A stretch of DNA of 46,375 nucleotides from a virus (taxonomy: Duplodnaviria; Heunggongvirae; Uroviricota; Caudoviricetes): IMG/VR virus record IMGVR_UViG_2925891887_000007, one strand, 5' to 3'. Below, piece after piece: positions 1,641-43,400 of this stretch; the stretch's first letter is position 1; the number at the start of each line of letters is the position of its first letter. Below the pieces are notes generated by a model. That model ran no database searches. It saw nothing but the letters and a program-made list of their open reading frames with translations, and was not told where the DNA came from. Made by a program: the position numbers and the translations under genes.

Positions 1641-4112
1641 TTAAGAATCAGCCTGACTCGGGATCAGTTTTTGCCAGATAACTGAAACGTATTTTGCCTG
1701 GTAACGGGCGTCATCAAGTGCATTATGGCGCTCACCTTCGAATGGAATAGCCGTTCTGGCATCGAAGTCTATGGCTTTCCCCAGCTCAACGATTGTGCGT
1801 ACATCGCGATCGTTGTAGTAACGCCACGGGCAGGGGATCCCCTGCCGTTCGTATGAACGGCGCAAAATCGTGTTGTCGAAGTTGGCTCCATTTCCCCAAA
1901 CCTGAACAAAAAATTCACCGGAGTTTTCGTCGATAAATTCTCGCAATTGTAACAGTGCATCATCTAACGGGATTTCATCGGTCATAATGGCAGATTGCGC
2001 TTCGCGTGATTGCTTAAGCCACCATTTAATGGTGTCCCGATCAATGACTCCGCCAGCAGTTTCCAGATCGATAGTCTTACTAAATTCCGGTCCCATATCT
2101 CCGGTTTGCGGATCGAAAAATATTGCACCTATTGAGATGATCGGGGCATCAGGATTTTTTCCCATGGTTTCAAGGTCGATCATTAGATGGTCACACGTCC
2201 TGCTGGTGGATGTGATTCCGTGATGACCGTTCACCTTAATTGGGTGATCTGCCGTCTCGCCAGTTTCATTATCGCTATTGTGATGCTGATTGCCGCCAGT
2301 GTTCTCCTTGTGTGGATGTTCAGCGCCTTCCATTTCCTCCGGATCATCTTCCTGAACTTCAACCTGATACTCTTCATCGAATGTTTCTTGGTATGTTGCG
2401 TCGCCCATCACCGCGCCACAATCAGGGCAGTTGCCGCCGCCGGTCTGACCGCAGGCGGTGCAGACTTTTTCCACTTCCTGTTGCGCTACTGGTTCAGGCT
2501 GTTTCGTTTCTGGCTCGTTTTGTAACGCATTTGGACTGTTTTGTTCCGCTTTTTGGTAGTTCCGTTCCGATTCATGCTGGTTCTGGTTCACAGAATCGCG
2601 GGTCTGGAGCCCCTTAACCCATTTCGGATCATTCGGGTCACTAATCCCTTCAACAAATTCACCACGTGATGCAGCAAGCAACTTATCGGCGTCAGGCTGG
2701 CTGATATTGGCTGCCTGCATAATTTTGTTTACTTCGTCAGCGGTAACTTTTATCGGCTCTGGTTGTTCTGAATCTTCAGCGGTATCTACATTTTGCGGTA
2801 AGCCCGTGTATGTGCCATTTTTTCGGGCAAAATATTCTTCTTTTGTGATTTCAGTGGCGCCAGCAGCCAGTGCCTTATCCAGACCAGAGAGTTTGTTTGC
2901 GCGACCGTATTTTTCTCCGTCCTTATCTGCGAAGAGGAAATAGAACGGCCCCTCACGCTCTACAGATGGTTCAGCTTCCGGCGCGGTTTCATTTTTTGGG
3001 ATATCAGATACCTCAGTTTCCACTGCATCAGTTTGTGTTTCTGATGACTGGAGAACATCAACAGTGCCCAGGTCTGTTTCTTCATTCTCAAACACGCCCT
3101 TTGTCGTCAGGTATTCGCAGATATATTTGTTCAGTGCTACGGGATCTTTGTGAATGTCGATCGGACGCTCACGGACAAGGCCAAAAATAGTTTGGCGGTC
3201 GTAGCGAAGGGCATCAGGCTGTTTGCGCATTGATGCCGAGATACGCTTCCAGTCTTCGCGGTCGTTGTCGATAACTTCTTTTTTTGCCCAGCGATGGATG
3301 CTGCCGTCAATGTTTCCGGCATCCACATCACCAGGCCAGAGAGCGTAGGCCAGTTCGTCATCCAGTGTTTTCCATGTCTGCTTGTATTCGCGATGAATGG
3401 CAGCAATGACCGGGCTGATTTTTCCTGTTGAATTTTCAGTGTACTGTTGATTGGCTCTGGCGCGGGCGAGATCAACAACAGACGTGTATTTTCCGGTTTC
3501 CTTGCGTTCACCTTCGCGACGTTTTTTCCAGATGCGCATCTCTGCCTGAATTTCGGGCCATTTAGCACCAGGAATACATTTATGCTTAACCCACCCAATG
3601 GCGTGCAACTTAAGCTCCGGATACATGGCGTTAACTTCTGGCATTTTCATCAACGCTTCAACGATATGTCCGTCGAATGTTGCCATGTCTTCCTGCAACA
3701 ATTCCTGTGCGCTAATAACCATATCAACGGTGATGTTTTCACATGTGTCGAACTTAACCATGACAGCGTTCTGTACTTCAGGGGCCAGCTTGTCAAAAGT
3801 GACGTTCATCGGATCGGATTCAGTCTCAACCGGGACAAAAGAAGCAGACTCCTCATCCCAGCGGTTTTCCTGCATATATTCAGCATCCCATGAATCGAGG
3901 GCAGGGCGGGGTATGCCAGGTTTATCCTCGCAGACAATAAATTTATAAGCGCAGTCCTGAGCAGCCGGATAATGTTCCAGGAATTGCCAGTGAAATTTTG
4001 CTCGAGCACGGCGTTCGTCGCCAGCTTCAATGGCTGTGGCTACAGCCACAGCGCCTTCTTCCCTTGTTGCCAGTTCGTCAGGAATAGCGGCGCAAATAAA
4101 GACTTTACTCAT
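1641..4112 (-). CDS. Large early protein with C-terminal DEDDh (DnaQ-like) 3'-5' exonuclease domain and a central CxxC-x-CxxC zinc ribbon
   Basis: C-terminus has DLETMG...WGNGANFD...HNALDDA exonuclease motifs; start chosen at MSKVF (GAGGT RBS), since the table start at 4148 is a TTG. Confidence 0.75.
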   Translation of the reverse strand: MSKVFICAAIPDELATREEGAVAVATAIEAGDERRARAKFHWQFLEHYPAAQDCAYKFIVCEDKPGIPRPALDSWDAEYMQENRWDEESASFVPVETESDPMNVTFDKLAPEVQNAVMVKFDTCENITVDMVISAQELLQEDMATFDGHIVEALMKMPEVNAMYPELKLHAIGWVKHKCIPGAKWPEIQAEMRIWKKRREGERKETGKYTSVVDLARARANQQYTENSTGKISPVIAAIHREYKQTWKTLDDELAYALWPGDVDAGNIDGSIHRWAKKEVIDNDREDWKRISASMRKQPDALRYDRQTIFGLVRERPIDIHKDPVALNKYICEYLTTKGVFENEETDLGTVDVLQSSETQTDAVETEVSDIPKNETAPEAEPSVEREGPFYFLFADKDGEKYGRANKLSGLDKALAAGATEITKEEYFARKNGTYTGLPQNVDTAEDSEQPEPIKVTADEVNKIMQAANISQPDADKLLAASRGEFVEGISDPNDPKWVKGLQTRDSVNQNQHESERNYQKAEQNSPNALQNEPETKQPEPVAQQEVEKVCTACGQTGGGNCPDCGAVMGDATYQETFDEEYQVEVQEDDPEEMEGAEHPHKENTGGNQHHNSDNETGETADHPIKVNGHHGITSTSRTCDHLMIDLETMGKNPDAPIISIGAIFFDPQTGDMGPEFSKTIDLETAGGVIDRDTIKWWLKQSREAQSAIMTDEIPLDDALLQLREFIDENSGEFFVQVWGNGANFDNTILRRSYERQGIPCPWRYYNDRDVRTIVELGKAIDFDARTAIPFEGERHNALDDARYQAKYVSVIWQKLIPSQADS

Positions 4113-4204
4113 TTGTTTTAACCTCATGACAGATTTAAGGATGAACAAATCCCTGCCATTGCTGGCATATAAGAATGAAACCGGATATTTATTACGGAAC
4201 TGTT

Positions 4205-4396: not shown

Positions 4397-4581
4397 TGTG
4401 CACATCCTTTTGGCATCAGACGTAAACGAGCCAGCATTGAAACAATGCATATTTTATTTAATAGCTCCCGTTCTTGTTTTCTCTTGTTAATGGCATCTTC
4501 AGTAAATACTGGGTTACTGATAGTGACACCAATTTCAAAACAACCTTCAGACGTATTAACGTTTGGTAATAACGTTTTCAT
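4393..4581 (-). CDS. dicB: DicB-like cell division inhibitor
   Basis: 62-aa ORF MKTLLPNVNTSEGCFEIGVTISNPVF... matching remembered DicB; GAGGA RBS. Confidence 0.75.
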   Translation of the reverse strand: MKTLLPNVNTSEGCFEIGVTISNPVFTEDAINKRKQERELLNKICIVSMLARLRLMPKGCAQ

Positions 4582-4755
4582 TATCGCGTCCTCAACAATG
4601 AATTTTGTGATGCAGTGCCTGGTGCCTCCAGGTGACGTTAACCAGTTAACAATTAACGCCGGATACAGAGAATCCACCCATAACACTGTTTTTGGTTTTA
4701 ACTGTTCCGCGTGCGCTCAGCCGCATTCACCACATCACAAAATTCACTTTAAAAA

Positions 4756-4808
4756 GGGCGGCAGAGCAGTCACGGAGTAAAACTGATACCGCCAAACGTC
4801 ACCAGAAA
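4756..4808 (-). ncRNA. dicF: DicF small RNA
   Basis: Minus-strand sequence TTTCTGGTGACGTTTGGCGGTATCAGTTTTACTCCGTGACTGCTCTGCCGCCC followed by a T-run; lies between ydfC-like and dicB-like genes as in Qin. Confidence 0.7.
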
Positions 4809-5148
4809 ATTGATAACAGAGGGCGTTGCAGCGGGGTTGTCACTTAAGCGTATGGTCAACCTGACAACCCGGTGTCCTCAACGGGGAAGGAATAACCCCG
4901 CCATACTTACCGCCGCGCCATTTCGCGGGTTGCCACAACCGGAAGCGCACGGTCGACGAAAATTTAACGACAGGCTATCTATGAACCAGCTACCTCGCCG
5001 TGCGCTTTCGCGTTATGGTCTGACTTTTCAGGGAAATATCCTTTCAGTAAACTGTCAGTTCCGGATGCGCACCCGTGTCCGGCGCACGCACTCCACCTCA
5101 CCCGTGGAGAACTCCTTAATTACTAACCTTAGCTTTGTTGATTAGCTA

Positions 5149-5367
5149 CTAACGCGGGTATGTAATCATTCTGGCAATGCTTAATGCCGCTGCTTTTTCC
5201 AGATTGGTGATATCCTGCTCCAGAGCGGACAGATTTTCAGCCTGCTTAGCCCTGGCTTCATTAGCCCATTTCAGATCCTGCGCTGCATTAATTTTCTGGC
5301 GCATCCACTCATAAAGTTCATCATCGGTATAGTCTGGCGCGATGATGACGGGTTCTCGTTTCTGCAT
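5149..5367 (-). CDS. ydfC: YdfC-like small protein
   Basis: 72-aa ORF with GAGGA RBS; size and order match the dicB operon. Confidence 0.65.
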   Translation of the reverse strand: MQKREPVIIAPDYTDDELYEWMRQKINAAQDLKWANEARAKQAENLSALEQDITNLEKAAALSIARMITYPR

Positions 5368-5397
5368 ACTGATTCCTCGCGGTGCTGTTTCGCTTAT

Positions 5398-5525
5398 CAG
5401 CCGTTAGATTTTGCCGAACTGGAAAGCGCCTGTTTAAACTCACTGAAGCTGAGAGCTTCTTCGCCTTCGGCAAGGCCTTCGAAGTATTCTTCGTAAGCCT
5501 TTTCCATGATTGTGTCGAAATCCAT
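5398..5525 (-). CDS. ydfB: YdfB-like small protein (42 aa, not in ORF track)
   Basis: ATG at 5523-5525 preceded by AGGTGA; translates MDFDTIMEKAYEEYFEGLAEGEEALSFSEFKQALSSSAKSNG; tightly packed between the ydfA- and ydfC-like genes. Confidence 0.55.
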
Positions 5526-5526
5526 A

Positions 5527-5682
5527 TCACTCACCTGAGTTTCTTTCCAGCCAGCGACGGGCACCATTTTCGGTTTTAAACGTTTTGCTTTTGGTATACG
5601 TCATTGCGGTGAACGTGCCGTCCTGGTTTGGAAACACGCCGTACACCAGAGATTCGTTGTTGCCAAGATCGATAGTATCCAT
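5527..5682 (-). CDS. ydfA: YdfA-like small protein (51 aa)
   Basis: Internal ATG at 5680-5682 with GAGGT RBS; first gene of the leftward operon downstream of a putative operator. Confidence 0.6.
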   Translation of the reverse strand: MDTIDLGNNESLVYGVFPNQDGTFTAMTYTKSKTFKTENGARRWLERNSGE

Positions 5683-5795
5683 GCTGACCTCATTTCCCCT
5701 TAACGCTGGGGTAGCGGAACTGTTTGCGGAGAACACCGTGCGGTGTGTTGATGGAGGTAATTTAGTTTTCTCATTATTTTTCGTCAAGGTTTTTT

Positions 5796-5813
5796 GATGA
5801 GAAAACTCAAGTG
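5796..5813. promoter_or_regulatory. Putative left operator (TGAGAAAACTCA inverted repeat)
   Basis: Same 12-mer also found in the repressor/cro intergenic region. Confidence 0.4.
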
Positions 5814-5874
5814 TTGGCGCAAGATAAAGCCAATACATTGAAATGTAAGGCTTTAAAATTTTGTGAAGGGATGA

Positions 5875-6282
5875 TTATTGATGCTTGTTGCGTTTGCGAG
5901 CCTCTAATAGCTCGGTGAACAGGCGATTAAAATTCTCAACGCGGGCGCGGAGTTCGCTGAGTTGTGCTTGTTGCTCTGATTTAGGAAGTGCGCGATACAA
6001 ACGCAGCATCTCTAACTCATCTTCCGATAAGTCTAGGGTACTATCGAGTGAAACAGGGGGAGCTGGTGTTTTGTCCTCGTCGCCAAACAGTATCCAGGTT
6101 GGTGAACATTGCAATACCTCGGCGAGGCGATGCAAATTTTGCCCGCGCGGGGCTGTATGGTCACTTTCCCATAATGAAATTGATGAGCCAGATACGCCAG
6201 CAGCTTTGCTTAAACCGTTTTGACTTAAGCCTACCTGCTTACGTCTTTCTCTAATGCGTTGACCTAAAGTTTTCTCGTTCAT
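5875..6282 (-). CDS. dicA: Phage repressor, HTH XRE family, DicA-like
   Basis: 135 aa from MNEKTLGQRIRERRK; HTH motif; VLQCSPTWILFGDEDK segment matches remembered DicA; divergent from a cro-like gene. Confidence 0.85.
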   Translation of the reverse strand: MNEKTLGQRIRERRKQVGLSQNGLSKAAGVSGSSISLWESDHTAPRGQNLHRLAEVLQCSPTWILFGDEDKTPAPPVSLDSTLDLSEDELEMLRLYRALPKSEQQAQLSELRARVENFNRLFTELLEARKRNKHQ

Positions 6283-6359
6283 ATTTAGATATCTTAATAA
6301 TCCTTGACTTGAGATTCCTTGAGTGATTAGCATTGAGAAAACTCAATATTGGAGGTGCG
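6283..6359. promoter_or_regulatory. Divergent promoter/operator region of the immunity switch
   Basis: 77-bp intergenic between divergent repressor and cro-like genes with repeated TTGAG half-sites and TTGAGAAAACTCAA. Confidence 0.5.
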
Positions 6360-6587
6360 ATGTTTAAATCAGACGTAATTAATTTTTACGGTACGAAAGC
6401 CAAAGTAGCGAAAGCTGCTGGCGTTGACCCATCTGCTGTTTCTCAATGGCAAGAGCTAGTTCCTGAAGGTCGCGCGATGCGTCTACAGGAGGCATCTGGC
6501 GGCGAGCTTCTGTATGATCCCAAGGTTTATGACGAATATCGTAAGACGAAGCGGGCGGGGCGGTTGAACAATGAAAATCACTCCTGA
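6360..6587 (+). CDS. dicC: Cro-like DNA-binding protein (DicC/YdaS family)
   Basis: 75 aa from ATG at 6360 preceded by GGAGGT; divergent from repressor. Confidence 0.75.
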   Translation: MFKSDVINFYGTKAKVAKAAGVDPSAVSQWQELVPEGRAMRLQEASGGELLYDPKVYDEYRKTKRAGRLNNENHS

Positions 6588-7092
6588 ACAGGCTCGTGAG
6601 GCTCTGGATGCCTGGATATGTCGACCAGGAATGACACAGGAGCAGGCGACGATATTAATCACTGAAGCATTCTGGGCTTTGAAAGAGCGCCCGAACATCG
6701 ATGTTCAGCGTGTCACAGATGAAGGTGGCGCGGTTGATCAGCGAGCGCTTGGCGTTAATCGAGTGAAGATATTCGAACGCTGGAAGGCTATCGACACCAG
6801 GGATAAGCGTGAAAAGTTCACGGCGCTAGTGCCTGCAATTATGGAGGCTATCCGGATTAATGATTTCAGGTTGTATCGTGAAATTAGTGACGGAAAAAGC
6901 ATCACGTACATGATCGCCGGGTTAAACAAAGAATATGGCGATGTGGTGGAGTCCGGACTGCTTTTTGCTGATCCTGCCGTAGTGGATCGTGAAACTGACG
7001 AACTTATAGAAAAAGCAATTGCTTTCAAACTTGCGTATCGACAGCAATACCAACAAAAAGCTGGATGGAATTATGAGCCTTCTTTTTGCTGA
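6571..7092 (+). CDS. Hypothetical early protein in the cII position (possibly YdaT-like)
   Basis: 173-aa ORF overlapping cro-like stop; position only, family not confidently recognised. Confidence 0.55.
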   Translation: MKITPEQAREALDAWICRPGMTQEQATILITEAFWALKERPNIDVQRVTDEGGAVDQRALGVNRVKIFERWKAIDTRDKREKFTALVPAIMEAIRINDFRLYREISDGKSITYMIAGLNKEYGDVVESGLLFADPAVVDRETDELIEKAIAFKLAYRQQYQQKAGWNYEPSFC

Positions 7093-8038
7093 ACGCCCAC
7101 TGGTTATAAACACACAGCTTGCGATGAAGATTGGCTTAAATGAAGCCATTGTGTTGCAGCAGTTGCATTACTGGTTGAGAGATACCAATTCCGGCATGGA
7201 ATGTGATGGTGTTCGCTGGATTTACAACACAACGGAACAATGGCTGGAACAGTTCCCATTCTGGTCAGAGTCAACGTTAAAGCGCGCGTTTGCAAGTCTG
7301 AAAACGCTGGGGCTCTTGCGTTGTGAAAAGCTCAATAAATCAAAGCGCGATATGACCAATTTCTACACGATTAACTATGGGAGCGAGCTTTTAGATGATG
7401 GCAAATTGAGCGAATCCATCGGTTCAAAATGCGCCGCTCCATCAGGTCAAAATGACACGATGGAAGAGGTCAAAATGAAACGCTCCATTGGTTCAAAACG
7501 ACCCAATGTCATCGGGTCAAAATGGCCCGATGATCCTACAGAGAATACAACAGAGATTACTACAGAGAATAAAAACACTTTTCGTCCGGAAGCTTCGCAA
7601 CCGGACCCGCAGACGGCTGAACAGGATTTTTTAATCTGGCACCCTGGCGCAGTTGTGTTTAGTGCGAAAAAACGCCAGTGGGGTAGCCAGGAGGATCTGG
7701 CGTGTGCGCAGTGGATATGGGGGCGGATCGTGGGTCTCTACGAACAGGCCGCCAGTGATGATGGCGAGATCATGCGACCAAAAGAGCCTAACTGGACTGT
7801 CTGGGCCAATGATGTGCGCACAATGCGGATGCTGGATGGCAGAAGCCACAGACAAATTTGTGAAATGTTTGGTCGGGTACAGCGGGATCCGTTCTGGGTA
7901 AAAAACATCATGAGCCCGTCAAAGCTCCGCGAAAAATGGGACGAACTGGTCATCCGCCTGGGGCGTTCACCTGTACAGCGTTGTGTTAATCATATTTCTG
8001 AACCGGATACAGAAATTCCGCCTGGTTTCAGAGGATAA
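7073..8038 (+). CDS. Phage replication protein (replisome-organiser-like N-terminus, possible DnaT-like C-terminus)
   Basis: 322 aa from MSLLFAERPLVINTQLAMKIGLNEAIVLQQLHYW; position after the immunity region. Confidence 0.65.
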   Translation: MSLLFAERPLVINTQLAMKIGLNEAIVLQQLHYWLRDTNSGMECDGVRWIYNTTEQWLEQFPFWSESTLKRAFASLKTLGLLRCEKLNKSKRDMTNFYTINYGSELLDDGKLSESIGSKCAAPSGQNDTMEEVKMKRSIGSKRPNVIGSKWPDDPTENTTEITTENKNTFRPEASQPDPQTAEQDFLIWHPGAVVFSAKKRQWGSQEDLACAQWIWGRIVGLYEQAASDDGEIMRPKEPNWTVWANDVRTMRMLDGRSHRQICEMFGRVQRDPFWVKNIMSPSKLREKWDELVIRLGRSPVQRCVNHISEPDTEIPPGFRG

Positions 8039-12071: not shown

Positions 12072-12227
12072 ATGAAGCAGCAAAAGGCGATGCTAATCGC
12101 CCTGATCGTCATCTGTTTAACCGTCATAGTGACGGCACTGGTAACGAGGAAAGACCTCTGCGAGGTACGAATCCGAACCGGTCAGACGGAGGTCGCTGTC
12201 TTCACAGCTTACGAACCTGAGGAGTAA
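12072..12227 (+). CDS. hokD: Hok family type I toxin
   Basis: MKQQKAMLIALIVICLTVIVTALVTRKDLCEVRIRTGQTEVAVFTAYEPEE; AAGGAGAAG RBS; in-frame upstream extension resembles a mok-like leader. Confidence 0.9.
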   Translation: MKQQKAMLIALIVICLTVIVTALVTRKDLCEVRIRTGQTEVAVFTAYEPEE

Positions 12228-12295
12228 GAGACCCGGCGAGGGAGAAATCCCTCGCCACCTCTGATGTGGCAGGCATCCTCAACGCACCCGCACTT

Positions 12296-12322
12296 AACCC
12301 GCTTCGGCGGGTTTTTGTTTTT
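12296..12322 (+). terminator. Rho-independent terminator after hok
   Basis: AACCCGCTTCGGCGGGTTTTTGTTTTT hairpin plus T-run. Confidence 0.6.
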
Positions 12323-12443
12323 ATTTTCAACGCGTTTGAAGTTCTGGACGGTGCCGGAATAGAATCAAAAATACTTAAGTAGCGCGCAGGGATAAGAGGG
12401 ATGGTCCCTTAAAGGGGAGAGCTAATTATCCGGAAGGATTCTG

Positions 12444-12695
12444 ATGATGAACATCGAAGAACTGCGTAAAATTTTTTGTGAAGATGGCCTCTATGCTGTG
12501 TGCGTTGAAAATGGAAATATTGTTAGTCATTACCGCATTGTGTGTTTGCAAAAAAATGGGGCTGCGTTAATTAATTTTGTGGATGCCCGAGTGACGGACG
12601 GATTTATCTTGCGCGACGGTGAGTTTGTCACTTCATTACAGGCATTGAAAGAGATCGGAATAAAAGCTGGCTTTTCTGCTTTTTCAGAAGAATAA
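12444..12695 (+). CDS. Hypothetical small protein (83 aa)
   Basis: ORF with plausible start in the hok-DUF968 region. Confidence 0.55.
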   Translation: MMNIEELRKIFCEDGLYAVCVENGNIVSHYRIVCLQKNGAALINFVDARVTDGFILRDGEFVTSLQALKEIGIKAGFSAFSEE

Positions 12696-20072: not shown

Positions 20073-20765
20073 TCAAATCTTATCTAACTCATTATAGGCT
20101 TCGATAATAAAAATTCTGATTTTAATAAGGCATGATTCAATGAAAGGAATTACTTCATGGTCATTCCCATGGAATCTTATTTTTTTCTCTTCGGTAATGA
20201 CTATGTTTAAAGGTACACCATTACCACTTCTTTGTAATTTCCCATTTTCGAAAGTAAAGTCTTCTAATTTTTTGCCATTGATGTGGTTGTTTTTAAAGAG
20301 AATTTTTGCTGAGCTTCCTGCTGTGATTAAACCAAAACCATCTACGCTCACACTTAGGTCTTTAACAGAACTCTCTTCTCTTAAGGGGATTGGTTGTCTG
20401 TGCTTTACTTCATTAGTGAGATTACACATCATTTCCAACCAAGATTCGCCAGTGTGATAATCCTGTATAGAAGTAAAAATTTTATATAATGGAGAAGATG
20501 ATGGTGGGTTTATTTTTAGCGTCTTTGAGAAAAATTTATCAATAAACTCTTTTTTTCCGTAAGGGAAATATATTTTGGGGCGCTCATCATTACTGCGTGG
20601 AGAAATATATTTATCATAGGTATCATTAGCGAGATACTCTAAGGAACTTCGTAAGTTTTCCAAAATAGCTTTGACTTTTACAGGCTTGATATGCTGTGTC
20701 TGTCTCATTATGCCAAGACTTTCTTCAACTTCTTGCAATAAGTCCAACGAGCCTTCTCTAGACAT
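20073..20765 (-). CDS. Hypothetical 230-aa protein, low-GC cargo between lysis genes and cos
   Basis: Minus-strand ORF in AT-rich DNA flanked by long AT-rich intergenic regions. Confidence 0.65.
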   Translation of the reverse strand: MSREGSLDLLQEVEESLGIMRQTQHIKPVKVKAILENLRSSLEYLANDTYDKYISPRSNDERPKIYFPYGKKEFIDKFFSKTLKINPPSSSPLYKIFTSIQDYHTGESWLEMMCNLTNEVKHRQPIPLREESSVKDLSVSVDGFGLITAGSSAKILFKNNHINGKKLEDFTFENGKLQRSGNGVPLNIVITEEKKIRFHGNDHEVIPFIESCLIKIRIFIIEAYNELDKI

Positions 20766-21150
20766 ACAGGTAATTCTCCTTTATGAATTTTCAACATGTT
20801 ATAACTAATAATATATTTATCATATAACTGTATGAATAAATTGTGAGATTAGTAATGCAAGTTTCTATCCATAGTGTTCTCTAAGTACCCGCTTCCATCA
20901 TGTTGTTACGGACGGTATGGCTAAAACAAAGCACCTGAAGTTAAACGTTCTGAACTTTATGCTCGTTGAGCATATGAATTATCTGTAACCCGATGCGCTG
21001 GTTGTGGTTCACATTGATGGTCGTAATCAGCAGCGGTGGTGCCTGATGGCATGCAACTTCTTACTTATAAAACTTCGTATGGAATTGTTGCCATAACGAG
21101 CCCAGCTTAGCAGTTTTTAATGGGTCCTCCCGGCAGTGTGTCCTGCCACG

Positions 21151-40468: not shown

Positions 40469-43400
40469 ATGGCAGTAAAAATTTCAGGTGTACTGAAAGA
40501 CGGCACAGGAAAACCGGTACAGAACTGCACAATCCAGCTGAAAGCAAAACGTAACAGTACCACGGTGGTGGTGAACACGCTGGCATCTGAAAATCCGGAT
40601 GAAGCCGGGCGTTACAGTATGGACGTTGAGTACGGTCAGTACAGCGTTATTCTGTTGGTGGAAGGATTCCCGCCGTCACATGCCGGGACCATCACAGTGT
40701 ATGAAGATTCCCGACCCGGTACGCTGAATGATTTTCTCGGTGCCATGACGGAGGATGATGCCCGTCCGGAGGCACTGCGCCGTTTTGAGCTGATGGTGGA
40801 AGAGGTGGCGCGTAACGCGTCCGTGGTGGCACAGAACACGGCAGCCGCGAAGAAGTCAGCCAGTGATGCCAGCACATCAGCCCGTGAGGCGGCAACCCAT
40901 GCGACTGATGCTGCAGGCTCAGCACGCGCAGCCAGCACGTCAGCCGGACAGGCCGCGTCGTCGGCTCAGTCAGCGACTTCCAGCGCAGGAACGGCATCAA
41001 CAAAGGCCACTGAAGCATCAAAAAGTGCTGCCGCTGCAGAGTCCTCAAAAAGCGCGGCAGCTACCAGTGCCAGTGCCGCAAAAACGTCAGAAACGAATGC
41101 TGCAGCGTCACAACAATCAGCAGCCACTTCTGCATCCACCGCGACTACGAAAGCGTCAGAAGCTGCCACCTCAGCCCGGGATGCGGCGGCTTCAAAAGAG
41201 GCGGCAAAATCATCAGAAACGAACGCATCCTCGAGCGCCAGTAGCGCAGCTTCCTCGGCAACAGCGGCAGGAAATTCCGCGAAGGCGGCAAAAACGTCAG
41301 AGACGAACGCCAGGTCTTCTGAAACGGCAGCGGGACAGAGCGCCTCGGCTGCGGCAGGCTCAAAAACAGCGGCTGCGTCGTCTGCCAGTGCAGCGTCAAC
41401 AAGTGCCGGGCAGGCCTCAGCCAGTGCTAGCGCCGCCGGAAAATCGGCAGAAAGCGCCGCATCGTCTGCTTCAACAGCCACAACGAAGGCTGGCGAAGCC
41501 ACTGAACAGGCCAGCGCAGCAGCGAGGTCTGCTTCCGCAGCGAAGACATCCGAAACGAACGCGAAAGCGTCGGAAACCAGCGCAGAATCCTCAAAAACGG
41601 CTGCCGCATCGTCAGCCAGTTCGGCGTCGTCATCGGCATCATCTGCGTCTGCTTCAAAAGATGAGGCGACCAGACAGGCGTCAGCAGCGAAGGGTAGCGC
41701 CACGACGGCATCCACGAAGGCGACAGAGGCAGCTGGCAGTGCGACGGCAGCAGCTCAGAGCAAAAGTACGGCGGAATCCGCGGCAACGCGCGCTGAGACA
41801 GCGGCAAAACGGGCAGAGGATATTGCATCCGCCGTGGCGCTTGAGGATGCGAGCACGACGAAAAAGGGGATAGTACAGCTCAGCAGTGCGACCAACAGCA
41901 CTTCCGAGTCACTGGCGGCAACGCCAAAAGCCGTTAAGGCCGCGTATGACCTGGCTAACGGGAAATACACCGCACAGGATGCAACGACAGCACAGAAAGG
42001 GATAATCCAGCTAAGCAGCGCGACCAACAGCACGTCTGAAACGCTGGCGGCAACGCCAAAGGCAGTAAAATCAGCCTATGACAATGCAGAGAAACGTCTG
42101 CAGAAAGACCAGAACGGCGCTGATATACCCGATAAGGGACGCTTCCTGAACAACATTAACGCGGTCAGTAAAACAGACTTTGCTGATAAGCGTGGTATGC
42201 GTTATGTGCGGGTTAACGCTCCTGCAGGTGCAACATCTGGAAAATATTACCCTGTTGTTGTTATGCGTTCTGCTGGCTCAGTAAGCGAACTGGCATCAAG
42301 GGTCATTATCACCACGGCAACGCGAACCGCAGGCGATCCGATGAATAACTGCGAGTTTAACGGATTTGTTATGCCTGGTGGCTGGACTGACAGGGGGCGT
42401 TATGCTTATGGAATGTTCTGGCAATATCAAAACAATGAACGAGCCATCCACTCAATAATGATGAGTAATAAGGGCGATGATTTGCGCTCTGTGTTCTATG
42501 TTGATGGCGCTGCTTTCCCTGTTTTTGCGTTTATCGAAGATGGCCTGTCAATATCCGCACCTGGTGCTGATCTCGTTGTTAATGATACGACCTATAAGTT
42601 TGGGGCAACAAATCCAGCGACTGAATGTATCGCGGCGGACGTTATCCTTGATTTTAAGAGTGGGCGTGGTTTTTATGAGTCTCATTCGTTAATCGTTAAC
42701 GATAACTTGTCGTGCAAAAAACTTTTTGCCACAGACGAAATTGTAGCGCGTGGTGGTAATCAGATTCGAATGATAGGTGGGGAGTATGGGGCATTATGGC
42801 GTAATGATGGCGCTAAAACTTACCTGCTGCTTACCAATCAAGGTGATGTTTATGGTGGATGGAATACATTAAGACCGTTTGCTATTGATAACGCAACCGG
42901 CGAACTGGTTATTGGAACCAAGCTGTCTGCAAGTCTGAACGGTAACGCATTGACAGCAACAAAGCTGCAAACGCCAAGACTGGTTTCTGGGGTTGAGTTT
43001 GATGGTTCAAAAGATATTACTTTAACCGCCGCGCATGTGGCTGCTTTTGCCAGAAGGGCAACGGATACATATGCCGATGCGGATGGTGGCGTTCCCTGGA
43101 ATGCCGAATCAGGCGCTTACAATGTCACCCGCTCTGGCGACAGCTATATTCTGGTTAACTTCTATACCGGAGTCGGAAGTTGCCGGACCCTGCAGATGAA
43201 GGCGCATTACAGAAATGGTGGTCTGTTCTACCGTTCTTCAAGAGACGGTTATGGTTTTGAGGAAGACTGGGCAGAAGTTTATACCTCGAAAAATCTTCCA
43301 CCAGAAAGCTACCCAGTCGGCGCACCAATCCCGTGGCCATCAGATACCGTTCCGTCTGGTTATGCCCTGATGCAGGGGCAGACTTTTGACAAATCTGCCT

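What the first reader, a model, noticed from the sequence alone, without database searches (positions are those of the whole stretch)
5796..6348. Identical TGAGAAAACTCA elements flank the repressor gene
The 12-mer occurs at 5797-5808 (downstream of the repressor gene, upstream of the leftward ydfA-like operon) and at 6334-6345 (within the 77-bp divergent repressor/cro intergenic region, which also has repeated TTGAG half-sites). This arrangement resembles OL and OR flanking cI and identifies probable repressor-binding sites.
Basis: seen in the sequence. Interest (0 to 1): 0.4.

Follow-up and report, generated by a model that had tools for sequence, protein, structure and literature searches.

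The report
Operator sites of a DicA-type prophage repressor
The repeated 12-mer is the core of the DNA sites where a prophage's small DicA-like repressor (and probably its Cro-like partner) binds on both sides of the repressor gene; this is an ordinary lambdoid/Qin-type genetic switch with a binding-site sequence not yet described.

Summary

The window is an E. coli mEp460_ev081-like lambdoid prophage. Its layout is that of K-12 Qin: cro/dicC-like gene, divergent dicA-like repressor, then ydfA-ydfB-ydfC-DicF-dicB.

- The right-hand site covers the -10/+1 of the predicted cro promoter. That is the position of K-12 operator Oc, the experimentally defined DicA site.
- The two left-hand sites bracket the -35 and overlap the -10 of the predicted dicB-operon promoter.
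- Across 10 distinct E. coli variants and two Buttiauxella species, the three cores are invariant while flanking DNA diverges.
- Heteroimmune DicA relatives carry different, type-specific palindromes at the same three positions, and these track repressor helix 3.

The OL/OR interpretation is therefore supported. I add a tripartite right operator (sites 24-25 bp apart) and a bipartite left one (36 bp). The repressor lacks a cleavage domain, and a Rem antirepressor homolog is present. No binding was measured.

Verdict: a new member of a known kind, of modest interest.

The parts
6331..6348 (.). O_R1, the Oc-equivalent and strongest operator. In an 18-bp P22-type frame it reads CATTGAG-AAAA-CTCAATA. 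It overlaps the -10 and the predicted +1 of the cro-like promoter.
   Evidence: Invariant in 10 E. coli variants and 2 Buttiauxella species. Positional homolog of K-12 Oc (PMC3441716).
6307..6324 (.). O_R2, the Om-like candidate weak operator (ACTTGAG-ATTC-CTTGAGT; 8/10 arm matches). It lies in the spacer of the cro promoter, abutting the -35, 24 bp centre-to-centre from O_R1.
   Evidence: The half-site abutting the -35 changes with immunity type: TTGAG here, CTGAG in Buttiauxella, TTAGG in the L010/L019 types. Weak evidence; K-12 Om was not bound by DicA in vivo.
6282..6299 (.). O_R3, an Oa-like dyad (TATTTAG-ATAT-CTTAATA; 8/10). It overlaps the repressor start codon and a candidate -10 (TAAGAT, minus strand) that ends 8 nt before the repressor ATG. 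It is either a third operator or simply the repressor's near-leaderless promoter.
   Evidence: Invariant in E. coli, Buttiauxella and C. braakii even where the repressor helix and Oc differ. The promoter reading is inference.
6304..6333 (+). Predicted sigma-70 promoter of the cro/dicC-like gene (TTGACT-18-TAGCAT).
   Evidence: Same layout as the K-12 dicC promoter, whose +1 was mapped by 5'RACE (PMC3441716).
5795..5812 (.). Its core starts 10 bp upstream of the -35 of the leftward promoter and is centred near -51.
   Evidence: Invariant across variants and in Buttiauxella while both flanks vary.
5759..5776 (.). O_L2: on the minus strand TAATGAG-AAAA-CTAAATT (core 5762-5773, 11/12). It overlaps the spacer and -10 of the leftward promoter and lies 36 bp centre-to-centre from O_L1.
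   Evidence: Invariant across variants and in Buttiauxella.
5759..5787 (-). Predicted sigma-70 promoter of the ydfA-ydfB-ydfC-DicF-dicB operon, the dicBp / P_L equivalent (TTGACG-17-TAAATT).
   Evidence: Homologous to K-12 dicBp (TTGACC-17-TAATCT).
5875..6282 (-). Repressor gene, DicA-like, 135 aa. The N-terminal HTH_3 domain is homologous to the P22 C2 N-terminal domain. There is no S24 peptidase domain.
6360..6587 (+). Cro/DicC-like gene, 75 aa, P22_Cro family.
4498..5682 (-). Leftward operon under the left operators: ydfA (5527-5682), ydfB (5397-5525), ydfC (5149-5367), DicF sRNA (4756-4807) and dicB (4498-4686).
5825..5855 (-). Conserved hairpin between the repressor stop codon and O_L1. 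It is a candidate weak terminator for the repressor transcript; the following U-tract is poor.
   Evidence: Fold. Conserved block. Not called a terminator by the scan.
12444..12692 (+). rem homolog, 94% identical to K-12 Rem, the antirepressor of DicA. It is the probable induction route for this non-cleavable repressor.
   Evidence: PMC10448788

Best explanation
The 12-mers are the cores of operators of a Qin/DicA-type lambdoid immunity region with its own specificity, the mEp460_ev081 immunity type.

Binding (inferred). A dimer of the 135-aa repressor binds each dyad, consensus (A)TTGAG-AAAA-CTCAA(T), through its P22-C2-like helix-turn-helix. By analogy with P22 C2, the arms are read directly and the invariant A-tract centre indirectly.

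Right side (inferred from position). The strong site O_R1 covers the -10/+1 of the cro-like promoter, so bound repressor shuts off cro and the rightward early genes. By analogy with K-12 DicA at Oc, it probably also stimulates the repressor's own weak, near-leaderless promoter. Two weaker dyads, O_R2 and O_R3, sit 24 and 25 bp further on and give a lambda-like tripartite O_R. O_R3 overlaps the repressor promoter and start codon, where the Cro-like protein, or excess repressor, would shut off repressor synthesis.

Left side (inferred from position). O_L2 overlaps the spacer and -10 of the promoter of the ydfABC-DicF-dicB operon and occludes RNA polymerase. O_L1, 36 bp upstream on the other side of the -35, probably helps by cooperative binding.

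Induction (inferred). The repressor has no RecA-cleavable domain, so induction is most likely through the Rem-like antirepressor encoded at 12444-12692.

Shown here: the sequences, their positions relative to predicted promoters, homology to the K-12 system, conservation and covariation. Not shown: binding, cooperativity, activation and the Cro targets.
For: 1. Gene context matches K-12 Qin: HTH_3 repressor, P22_Cro-family cro, YdaT-like gene, ydfA (DUF1391), DicF (Rfam 76.7 bits) and dicB. The immunity region is 99% identical to functional phage mEp460_ev081. That phage is cited as carrying dicAC, dicBF and rem in PMC10448788.

2. Positions relative to predicted promoters:
- O_R1 begins immediately after the cro -10.
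- O_L2 overlaps the spacer and -10 of the leftward promoter.
- O_L1 starts 10 bp upstream of its -35.

3. K-12 has its own palindrome, Oc = TTGTTAGTCATAACTAACAA, at the same three places. DicA binding to Oc, its loss through point mutations, repression of dicC and activation of dicA are experimental results (PMC3441716). DicA represses dicBp (PMC10448788). DicC ChIP-seq infers sites on either side of dicA, with a TTnG...CnAA palindromic motif (PMC11430063).

4. Phylogenetic footprint in 10 distinct E. coli sequences of this immunity type:
- 0 of 39 operator columns vary, against 43 of 232 other noncoding columns (Fisher p = 7e-4).
- Around the left promoter, 0 of 25 against 22 of 53 (p = 3e-5).

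5. Buttiauxella ferragutiae and B. gaviniae have repressor N-terminal domains 86% and 84% identical to the window's. They keep all three 12-mer cores exactly, with the same spacing, in otherwise diverged intergenic DNA. In B. ferragutiae the downstream gene is also different.

6. Covariation. Relatives with a different helix 3 carry different palindromes at all three positions. Examples are the K-12 type, the L019 type (TGTTAGA-CTTT-TCTAACA), the L010 type (CTTAGA-TTTT-CCTAAG) and C. braakii (TGTTGAG-type).

7. Enrichment: 5 of the 14 window matches at >=8/10 arm positions fall in 269 bp of regulatory DNA (p ~1e-8).

8. The N-terminal domain aligns without gaps to P22 C2 (PDB 1adr and 2r1j; E = 8e-16). 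P22 repressor binds 18-bp dyads, contacts positions 2-7 and 12-17, and does not contact the central 4 bp. An A-tract centre gives its tightest binding (PMC4267663). The sites here share that geometry and have an invariant AAAA centre.
Against: - No binding or expression data exist for this repressor or these sites. All functional steps rest on homology and comparative sequence.
- Promoters and transcription starts are consensus predictions only.
- The right intergenic region is conserved almost throughout, so the footprint there is not significant on its own (0/14 against 9/63 variable columns, p = 0.15).
- In K-12, DicA bound only Oc in the in vivo assay, not Om or Oa. O_R2 and O_R3 may therefore not be repressor sites.
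- O_R3 stays the same in C. braakii although that repressor's helix and Oc differ. This fits a promoter or leaderless-start element better than an operator.
- O_L1, centred near -51, cannot occlude polymerase by itself. Its role and the meaning of the 36-bp spacing are conjecture.
- DicA binding at the K-12 dicBp operators is itself inferred from repression, not footprinted in the papers read.
Confidence: 0.9

Rival explanations
1. The dyads are targets of the Cro/DicC-like protein only, or of a host factor, and the repressor recognises something else.
For: The direct genome-wide binding data available for the K-12 system are for DicC, which binds on both sides of dicA (PMC11430063). The Cro HTH also differs between immunity types. 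A host TF, YjdC, is reported to regulate DicA targets when DicA is absent.
Against: In K-12 the homologous site Oc was shown genetically to need DicA. C. braakii has a Cro HTH like the window's but a different repressor helix 3, and its Oc and O_L sites differ from the window's. The strong sites therefore track the repressor rather than Cro. In lambdoid phages the repressor and Cro share operators (established knowledge), so the two readings are not exclusive.
Confidence: 0.05
2. The inverted pair 5762-5773 / 5798-5809 acts as an RNA hairpin, a terminator or attenuator in read-through transcripts from the repressor gene, rather than as protein-binding DNA.
For: The RNA of 5750-5875 (minus strand) folds with the two left sites paired: -22.5 kcal/mol for the whole segment, z = -4.5.
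Against: - Pairing follows automatically from two copies of one palindrome.
- No U-run follows, and the scan found no terminator.
- The promoter's -35 sits in the loop, and the operon transcript would start downstream of the hairpin.
- The right-hand copy has no partner.
- The homologous K-12 region folds no better than shuffles (z = -0.22), yet it keeps operator-like dyads.
- The sites covary with the repressor helix.
Confidence: 0.03
3. The repeat is a chance or hitch-hiking repeat with no function.
For: Repeated 12/13-mers within 600 bp occur elsewhere in the window, and shuffles give about 0.65 13-mer pairs per window.
Against: Each copy has dyad symmetry and lies exactly on a promoter element. 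The motif is enriched in the regulatory DNA (p ~1e-8). The cores are invariant in E. coli variants and in Buttiauxella while their flanks diverge.
Confidence: 0.01

Closest known systems
E. coli K-12 Qin prophage dicA-dicC immunity locus: operators Oc/Om/Oa at the dicA-dicC promoter and the operators at dicBp (Béjar et al. 1988 as cited; Yun et al. 2012, PMC3441716; Ragunathan & Vanderpool 2023, PMC10448788)
   Same: - Same gene order and orientation: dicC-like gene, divergent dicA-like gene, then ydfABC-DicF-dicB.
- A 135-aa repressor without a cleavage domain.
- A strong dyad at the -10/+1 of the cro/dicC promoter.
- Two dyads 35-36 bp apart, bracketing the -35 and overlapping the -10 of the dicB-operon promoter.
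- A Rem antirepressor homolog is present.
   Different: - The repressor is only 57% identical overall, and the recognition helix differs (VSGSSISLWE against ISHVSVSQWE).
- The operator half-site is ATTGAG with an AAAA centre, against TGTTAGT with a CATA centre.
- This is therefore a distinct immunity specificity.
- The element here resembles a complete, functional phage (mEp460_ev081-like), not a cryptic remnant.
Phage P22 immC: C2 repressor and Cro with OL/OR operators
   Same: - The repressor N-terminal domain is homologous and aligns without gaps (E = 8e-16).
- Cro belongs to the P22_Cro family.
- The sites are dyads with a 4-bp central segment that fit an 18-bp frame.
- The centre is an A-tract, which gives P22 repressor its tightest binding.
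- Operators flank the repressor gene.
   Different: - There is no C-terminal S24/LexA-like domain. A short helical C-terminal domain takes its place.
- Window residues differ from P22 at positions 32, 33, 34, 37, 44 and 46 (G, S, S, L, A, R against N, V, A, Q, E, N; read from the alignment).
- From memory of the P22 C2-operator structure, residues 32, 33 and 37 contact bases. This was not checked here.
- The half-site is ATTGAG, against P22's ATTTAAG (the P22 consensus is from memory).
Phage lambda OL/OR with CI and Cro
   Same: - Operators lie on both sides of the repressor gene.
- The right operator appears tripartite with about 24-bp spacing.
- The repressor and cro promoters are divergent.
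- The repressor mRNA is probably leaderless and its promoter probably autoactivated.
   Different: - The repressor family, site length and site sequence all differ.
- Only two left-hand sites were found, 36 bp apart and straddling the -35.
- OL and OR are 0.54 kb apart, against 2.3-2.4 kb in lambda (the lambda figure is from memory).
- Induction is by an antirepressor rather than RecA-stimulated self-cleavage (inferred).
Salmonella Gifsy/Fels prophage repressors (GfoR, GfhR) with LexA-controlled antirepressors
   Same: Short, non-cleavable repressors inactivated by small antirepressors (as summarised in PMC10448788).
   Different: No perfect LexA box (CTGT-N8-ACAG) was found anywhere in the window. 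The signal that induces Rem is unknown even in K-12.

Membership tests
DicA/DicC-type (Qin-like) lambdoid immunity region operators | Short (~135 aa) HTH_3 repressor homologous to DicA, transcribed divergently from a P22_Cro-family cro/dicC gene | tested here: met
   57% identity, E = 3e-52; 70% identity
DicA/DicC-type (Qin-like) lambdoid immunity region operators | Dyad-symmetric site overlapping the -10/+1 of the cro/dicC promoter, at the position of K-12 Oc | tested here: met
   The K-12 Oc position relative to the -10/+1 comes from PMC3441716.
DicA/DicC-type (Qin-like) lambdoid immunity region operators | Related dyads at the promoter of the leftward (dicB) operon, downstream of the repressor gene | tested here: met
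   two sites 36 bp apart, bracketing the -35 and overlapping the -10, as in K-12 (35 bp)
DicA/DicC-type (Qin-like) lambdoid immunity region operators | Operator sequence conserved within an immunity type and covarying with the repressor recognition helix between types | tested here: met
DicA/DicC-type (Qin-like) lambdoid immunity region operators | Specific binding of the repressor (and Cro) to the sites, with repression of both promoters | not testable with these tools
   Needs EMSA or footprinting, reporter fusions, or ChIP.
Same immunity specificity as K-12 Qin DicA | Same operator sequence (TTGTTAGT-N4-ACTAACAA) and same recognition helix | tested here: not met
   the half-site is ATTGAG and helix 3 is VSGSSISLWE. 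The element is therefore predicted to be heteroimmune.
Lambda CI / P22 C2 / LexA-type self-cleaving repressors | C-terminal Peptidase_S24 domain with an Ala-Gly cleavage site | tested here: not met
   (HTH families only; the protein is 135 aa). (PDB matches cover residues 1-72 only).
P22 C2-type operator geometry | 18-bp dyad with contacted outer arms and a non-contacted, A/T-rich central 4 bp | tested here: met
   (frames). The centre is AAAA in all three strong sites and invariant. The geometry comes from PMC4267663. That this protein leaves the centre uncontacted is inferred.
Intrinsic terminator (rival reading for the left inverted pair) | GC-rich stem followed by a U-run | tested here: not met
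   (no terminator-like sites in 5600-6450). (an AU-rich stem with no U-run after it).

The most novel reading that the evidence does not exclude
The site layout may be a DicA-family switch design of its own, distinct from the lambda and P22 designs.
- At the left promoter, two dimers sit a conserved 35-36 bp apart, about 3.4 helical turns, on either side of the -35. They would cooperate through the non-S24 C-terminal domain.
- They might also pair with the tripartite right operator only 0.54 kb away to form a small repression loop.

In addition, the natural allelic series could give a readable recognition code for P22-C2-like HTH domains. That series runs: helix-3 residues 32/33/37 = N-V-Q (P22), H-V-Q (K-12), H-A-L (C. 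braakii), G/D-S-L (this type). The matching half-sites are TTAAG, TTAGT, TT(G/A)AG and TTGAG. Arg46 together with the obligatory A-tract centre would provide indirect readout.
Probability: 0.25. Interest if true: 0.4.

Novelty: new member of a known kind. Interest (0 to 1): 0.25.

Why it matters
This immunity type is present in 796 of 5,426 complete E. coli genomes. It controls DicF and DicB, which inhibit host cell division. Knowing its operator would allow three things:
- prediction of which prophages are homoimmune or heteroimmune;
- design of reporter and derepression experiments for a functional, inducible relative of the cryptic Qin element;
- site-directed tests of how P22-C2-like HTH domains change specificity.

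It does not change the general picture of lambdoid switches.

Tried and rejected
- Literature search for the 12-mer and its reverse complement returned only unrelated primer sequences. I found no prior description of this operator. Papers mentioning mEp460 are prophage-annotation reports.
- A perfect LexA box (CTGT-N8-ACAG) anywhere in the window, as a hint of SOS control of rem: none. Degenerate boxes were not examined.
- Additional strong operator copies elsewhere in the window, for example near rem: the 2-mismatch hits are at chance level (8 observed against 3.9 expected). None lies in a promoter-like context that I examined.
- A third left-hand site: nothing at >=7/10 besides O_L1 and O_L2.
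- RNA hairpin or terminator reading of the left inverted pair: considered and rejected.
- Oa/O_R3 covarying with the Cro type: C. braakii fits. The Rosenbergiella locus L094 does not, because its Cro HTH differs while its Oa is the same as in the L010/L019 types. I dropped this in favour of the promoter/leaderless-start reading.
- I made no structure prediction or large protein-database search, because the family assignment was already unambiguous.

Full report
**Observation**

The 12-mer TGAGAAAACTCA occurs exactly twice in the 46,375-bp window, at 5798-5809 and 6334-6345, both on the + strand. The identity extends to a 13-mer, TGAGAAAACTCAA.

A third copy with one mismatch, TGAGAAAACTAA, lies on the minus strand at 5762-5773 and was not reported.

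TGAG-N4-CTCA occurs nowhere else in the window. TTGAG occurs at 6309, 6319 and 6333 in the right intergenic region. That region is 77 bp long, between the repressor ATG at 6282 and the cro ATG at 6360.

A repeated 12/13-mer somewhere in 46 kb is not remarkable alone. The placement is. Of 14 positions matching TTGAG-N4-CTCAA at >=8 of 10 arm positions, five fall in the 269 bp of the two regulatory intergenic regions (p ~1e-8).

**Context**

- 5875-6282 (-) encodes a 135-aa HTH_3 protein, 57% identical to E. coli K-12 DicA.
- 6360-6587 (+) encodes a P22_Cro-family protein, 70% identical to DicC.
- 6571-7092 (+) is YdaT-like.
- To the left, on the minus strand, lie ydfA (DUF1391), ydfB, ydfC, the DicF sRNA (4756-4807, Rfam 76.7 bits) and dicB.

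This is the gene order of the Qin prophage of K-12. The immunity region is 99% identical to the functional temperate phage mEp460_ev081 and to phage HannyBb. The literature already notes mEp460_ev081 as carrying dicAC, dicBF and rem (PMC10448788).

The repressor/cro junction of this type is found in 796 of 5,426 complete E. coli genomes. A rem homolog, 94% identical to K-12 Rem, the DicA antirepressor, lies at 12444-12692.

**Anatomy**

The consensus scan finds two promoters in the region.
- A rightward promoter, TTGACT-18-TAGCAT (6304-6333), lies upstream of cro.
- A leftward promoter, TTGACG-17-TAAATT (5787-5759), lies upstream of ydfA.

The right 12-mer starts immediately after the cro -10. 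With its flanks it forms ATTGAG-AAAA-CTCAAT (6332-6347), centred on the expected +1.

On the left, the near copy (5762-5773) overlaps the spacer and -10. The exact copy (5798-5809) starts 10 bp upstream of the -35. The two are 36 bp apart centre to centre.

Two weaker dyads with 8/10 arm matches lie in the right region. The other is at 6284-6297, overlapping the repressor start codon. The three right-hand sites are spaced 25 and 24 bp apart.

**Comparison with the prototype**

In K-12, read in the same orientation, the palindrome TTGTTAGT-N4-ACTAACAA (Oc) sits in the same place relative to the dicC -10/+1. Related sequences bracket the -35 and overlap the -10 of dicBp, 35 bp apart. Homology between the window and K-12 breaks exactly where the operator and promoter segment begins.

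Experimental results for the K-12 system, as read in the papers:
- DicA binds Oc in vivo, single-base changes in Oc abolish binding, DicA at Oc represses dicC and activates dicA, and the dicC +1 was mapped (PMC3441716).
- Om and Oa were not bound by DicA in that assay.
- dicBp is repressed by DicA and derepressed by Rem (PMC10448788).
- ChIP-seq of DicC gives its strongest signal at this locus. The authors infer sites on either side of dicA and a palindromic TTnG...CnAA motif (PMC11430063).

**Comparative evidence**

I fetched 80 IMG/VR loci through ydfA and parsed the immunity regions upstream of it.

Fifteen sequences of the window's immunity type (fourteen fetched loci plus the window itself) give ten distinct sequences. 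In their alignment none of the 39 operator columns varies, against 43 of 232 other noncoding columns (Fisher p = 7e-4). Around the left promoter the figures are 0 of 25 against 22 of 53 (p = 3e-5). The variable positions abut the sites on both sides. The right region is conserved almost throughout, so the footprint there is not significant alone (p = 0.15).

A scan of one genome per species found Buttiauxella ferragutiae and B. gaviniae. Their repressor N-terminal domains are 86% and 84% identical, with helix 3 reading VSDSSISLWE. All three 12-mer cores are retained exactly, at the same distances, in intergenic DNA that is otherwise largely diverged. In B. ferragutiae the downstream gene is not ydfA.

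Relatives with other recognition helices carry other palindromes at the same three positions:
- the K-12 type;
- TGTTAGA-CTTT-TCTAACA (L019 type);
- CTTAGA-TTTT-CCTAAG (L010 type);
- TGTTGAG-type in Citrobacter braakii, whose helix 3 is SHATISLWE.

This is the pattern expected of operators that co-evolve with their repressor.

**Mechanism**

The N-terminal domain aligns without gaps to the P22 C2 DNA-binding domain (1adr, 2r1j; E = 8e-16). P22 repressor binds 18-bp dyads as a dimer. It contacts positions 2-7 and 12-17 and leaves the central four base pairs uncontacted. It binds A-tract centres most tightly, and an N46A mutant binds only the A-tract site (PMC4267663).

The sites here fit that frame, and their AAAA centre is invariant. 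The window repressor differs from P22 C2 at residues 32, 33, 34, 37, 44 and 46 (G, S, S, L, A, R against N, V, A, Q, E, N; alignment). That residues 32, 33 and 37 are base-contacting in P22 C2 I state from memory of the co-crystal structure.

From this I infer the following.
- Repressor dimers bind O_R1, O_L2 and O_L1.
- They occlude the cro promoter at +1 and the leftward promoter at its -10.
- O_L1 assists cooperatively.
- O_R1-bound repressor may activate the repressor promoter, as reported for K-12.
- Cro probably uses the same sites, with O_R3 as the place where repressor synthesis is shut off.

The repressor lacks an S24 domain. Induction should therefore run through the Rem homolog rather than RecA-stimulated cleavage. 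No perfect LexA box is present in the window.

**Caveats and rivals**

Nothing here measures binding, and the promoters and starts are predictions.

O_R2 and O_R3 are weak candidates. O_R3 is unchanged in C. braakii although the repressor helix and strong sites differ. It also contains a plausible -10 (TAAGAT) ending 8 nt before an ATG that has no Shine-Dalgarno sequence. It may therefore simply be the repressor's near-leaderless promoter (inference).

The left inverted pair can fold as an RNA hairpin. This follows automatically from two copies of a palindrome. No U-run follows it. The -35 lies in its loop. The K-12 equivalent folds no better than shuffled sequence.

A Cro-only reading is unlikely, because the strong sites track the repressor helix rather than the Cro HTH in C. 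braakii.

**Verdict**

The feature is a heteroimmune member of the DicA/DicC (Qin-like) immunity system. I found no earlier description of its operator sequence, (A)TTGAG-AAAA-CTCAA(T). It is a new member of a known kind and of modest interest.

Noticed in passing
window 12444-12692 (+): Homolog of Rem, 94% identical to K-12 Rem, the antirepressor of DicA. Directly upstream is a Hok-like small ORF (about 12073-12228, MKQQKAMLIALIVICLTVIV...), then a GC-rich hairpin with a T-run at about 12285-12325. The mEp460_ev081 record annotates a MokW protein at its equivalent position. No perfect LexA box occurs in the window.
   Followed up: partly
window 5825-5855 (-): Conserved hairpin between the repressor stop codon and O_L1 (AAAGCC..ACAU-loop-AUGU..GGCUUU). 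It may be a weak terminator insulating the dicB-operon promoter from repressor read-through. The consensus scan did not call it a terminator.
   Followed up: partly
window 6282-6299: A dyad immediately upstream of the repressor ATG. It is invariant across E. coli, Buttiauxella and C. braakii even where repressor specificity differs. Other immunity types have TTAG...CTAA dyads at the same place. It holds a candidate -10 (TAAGAT) 8 nt before an ATG with no Shine-Dalgarno sequence, which suggests a leaderless repressor mRNA as for lambda cI.
   Followed up: partly
window 7444-7478 and 7536-7571 (inside the replication-protein ORF 7019-8038): Two 12-mers, each repeated 23-24 bp apart (AGGTCAAAATGA and CTACAGAGAATA). 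They resemble the iterons of a lambda-like origin embedded in the O-like replication gene.
   Followed up: no
window 20604-20618 / 20810-20824; 41078-41092 / 41288-41302; 41888-42060: Other exact direct repeats of 14-17 nt within 600 bp: AATATATTTATCATA 206 bp apart, GCAAAAACGTCAGA 210 bp apart, and a 132-bp-period repeat near 41.9-42.0 kb. Not examined.
   Followed up: no
loci L017-L080 (IMG/VR), upstream of ydfA: Many ydfA-linked prophages carry non-DicA immunity modules, either S24-type or other repressors. In these a conserved leader of about 150 bp (CCCACCCCGCCCCACAGAATGCAGGGCAATACTTCGAGTTACC...) lies between the left promoter and ydfA. DicA-type loci lack this leader. Its function was not examined; it could be a nut-like or other RNA element.
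   Followed up: no
window 1641-4148 (-): Long ORF of 835 aa with a C-terminal DnaQ-like exonuclease motif. In mEp460_ev081 it is annotated as an exodeoxyribonuclease of prophage CP-933P. It lies downstream in the same leftward transcription direction as the dicB operon.
   Followed up: no
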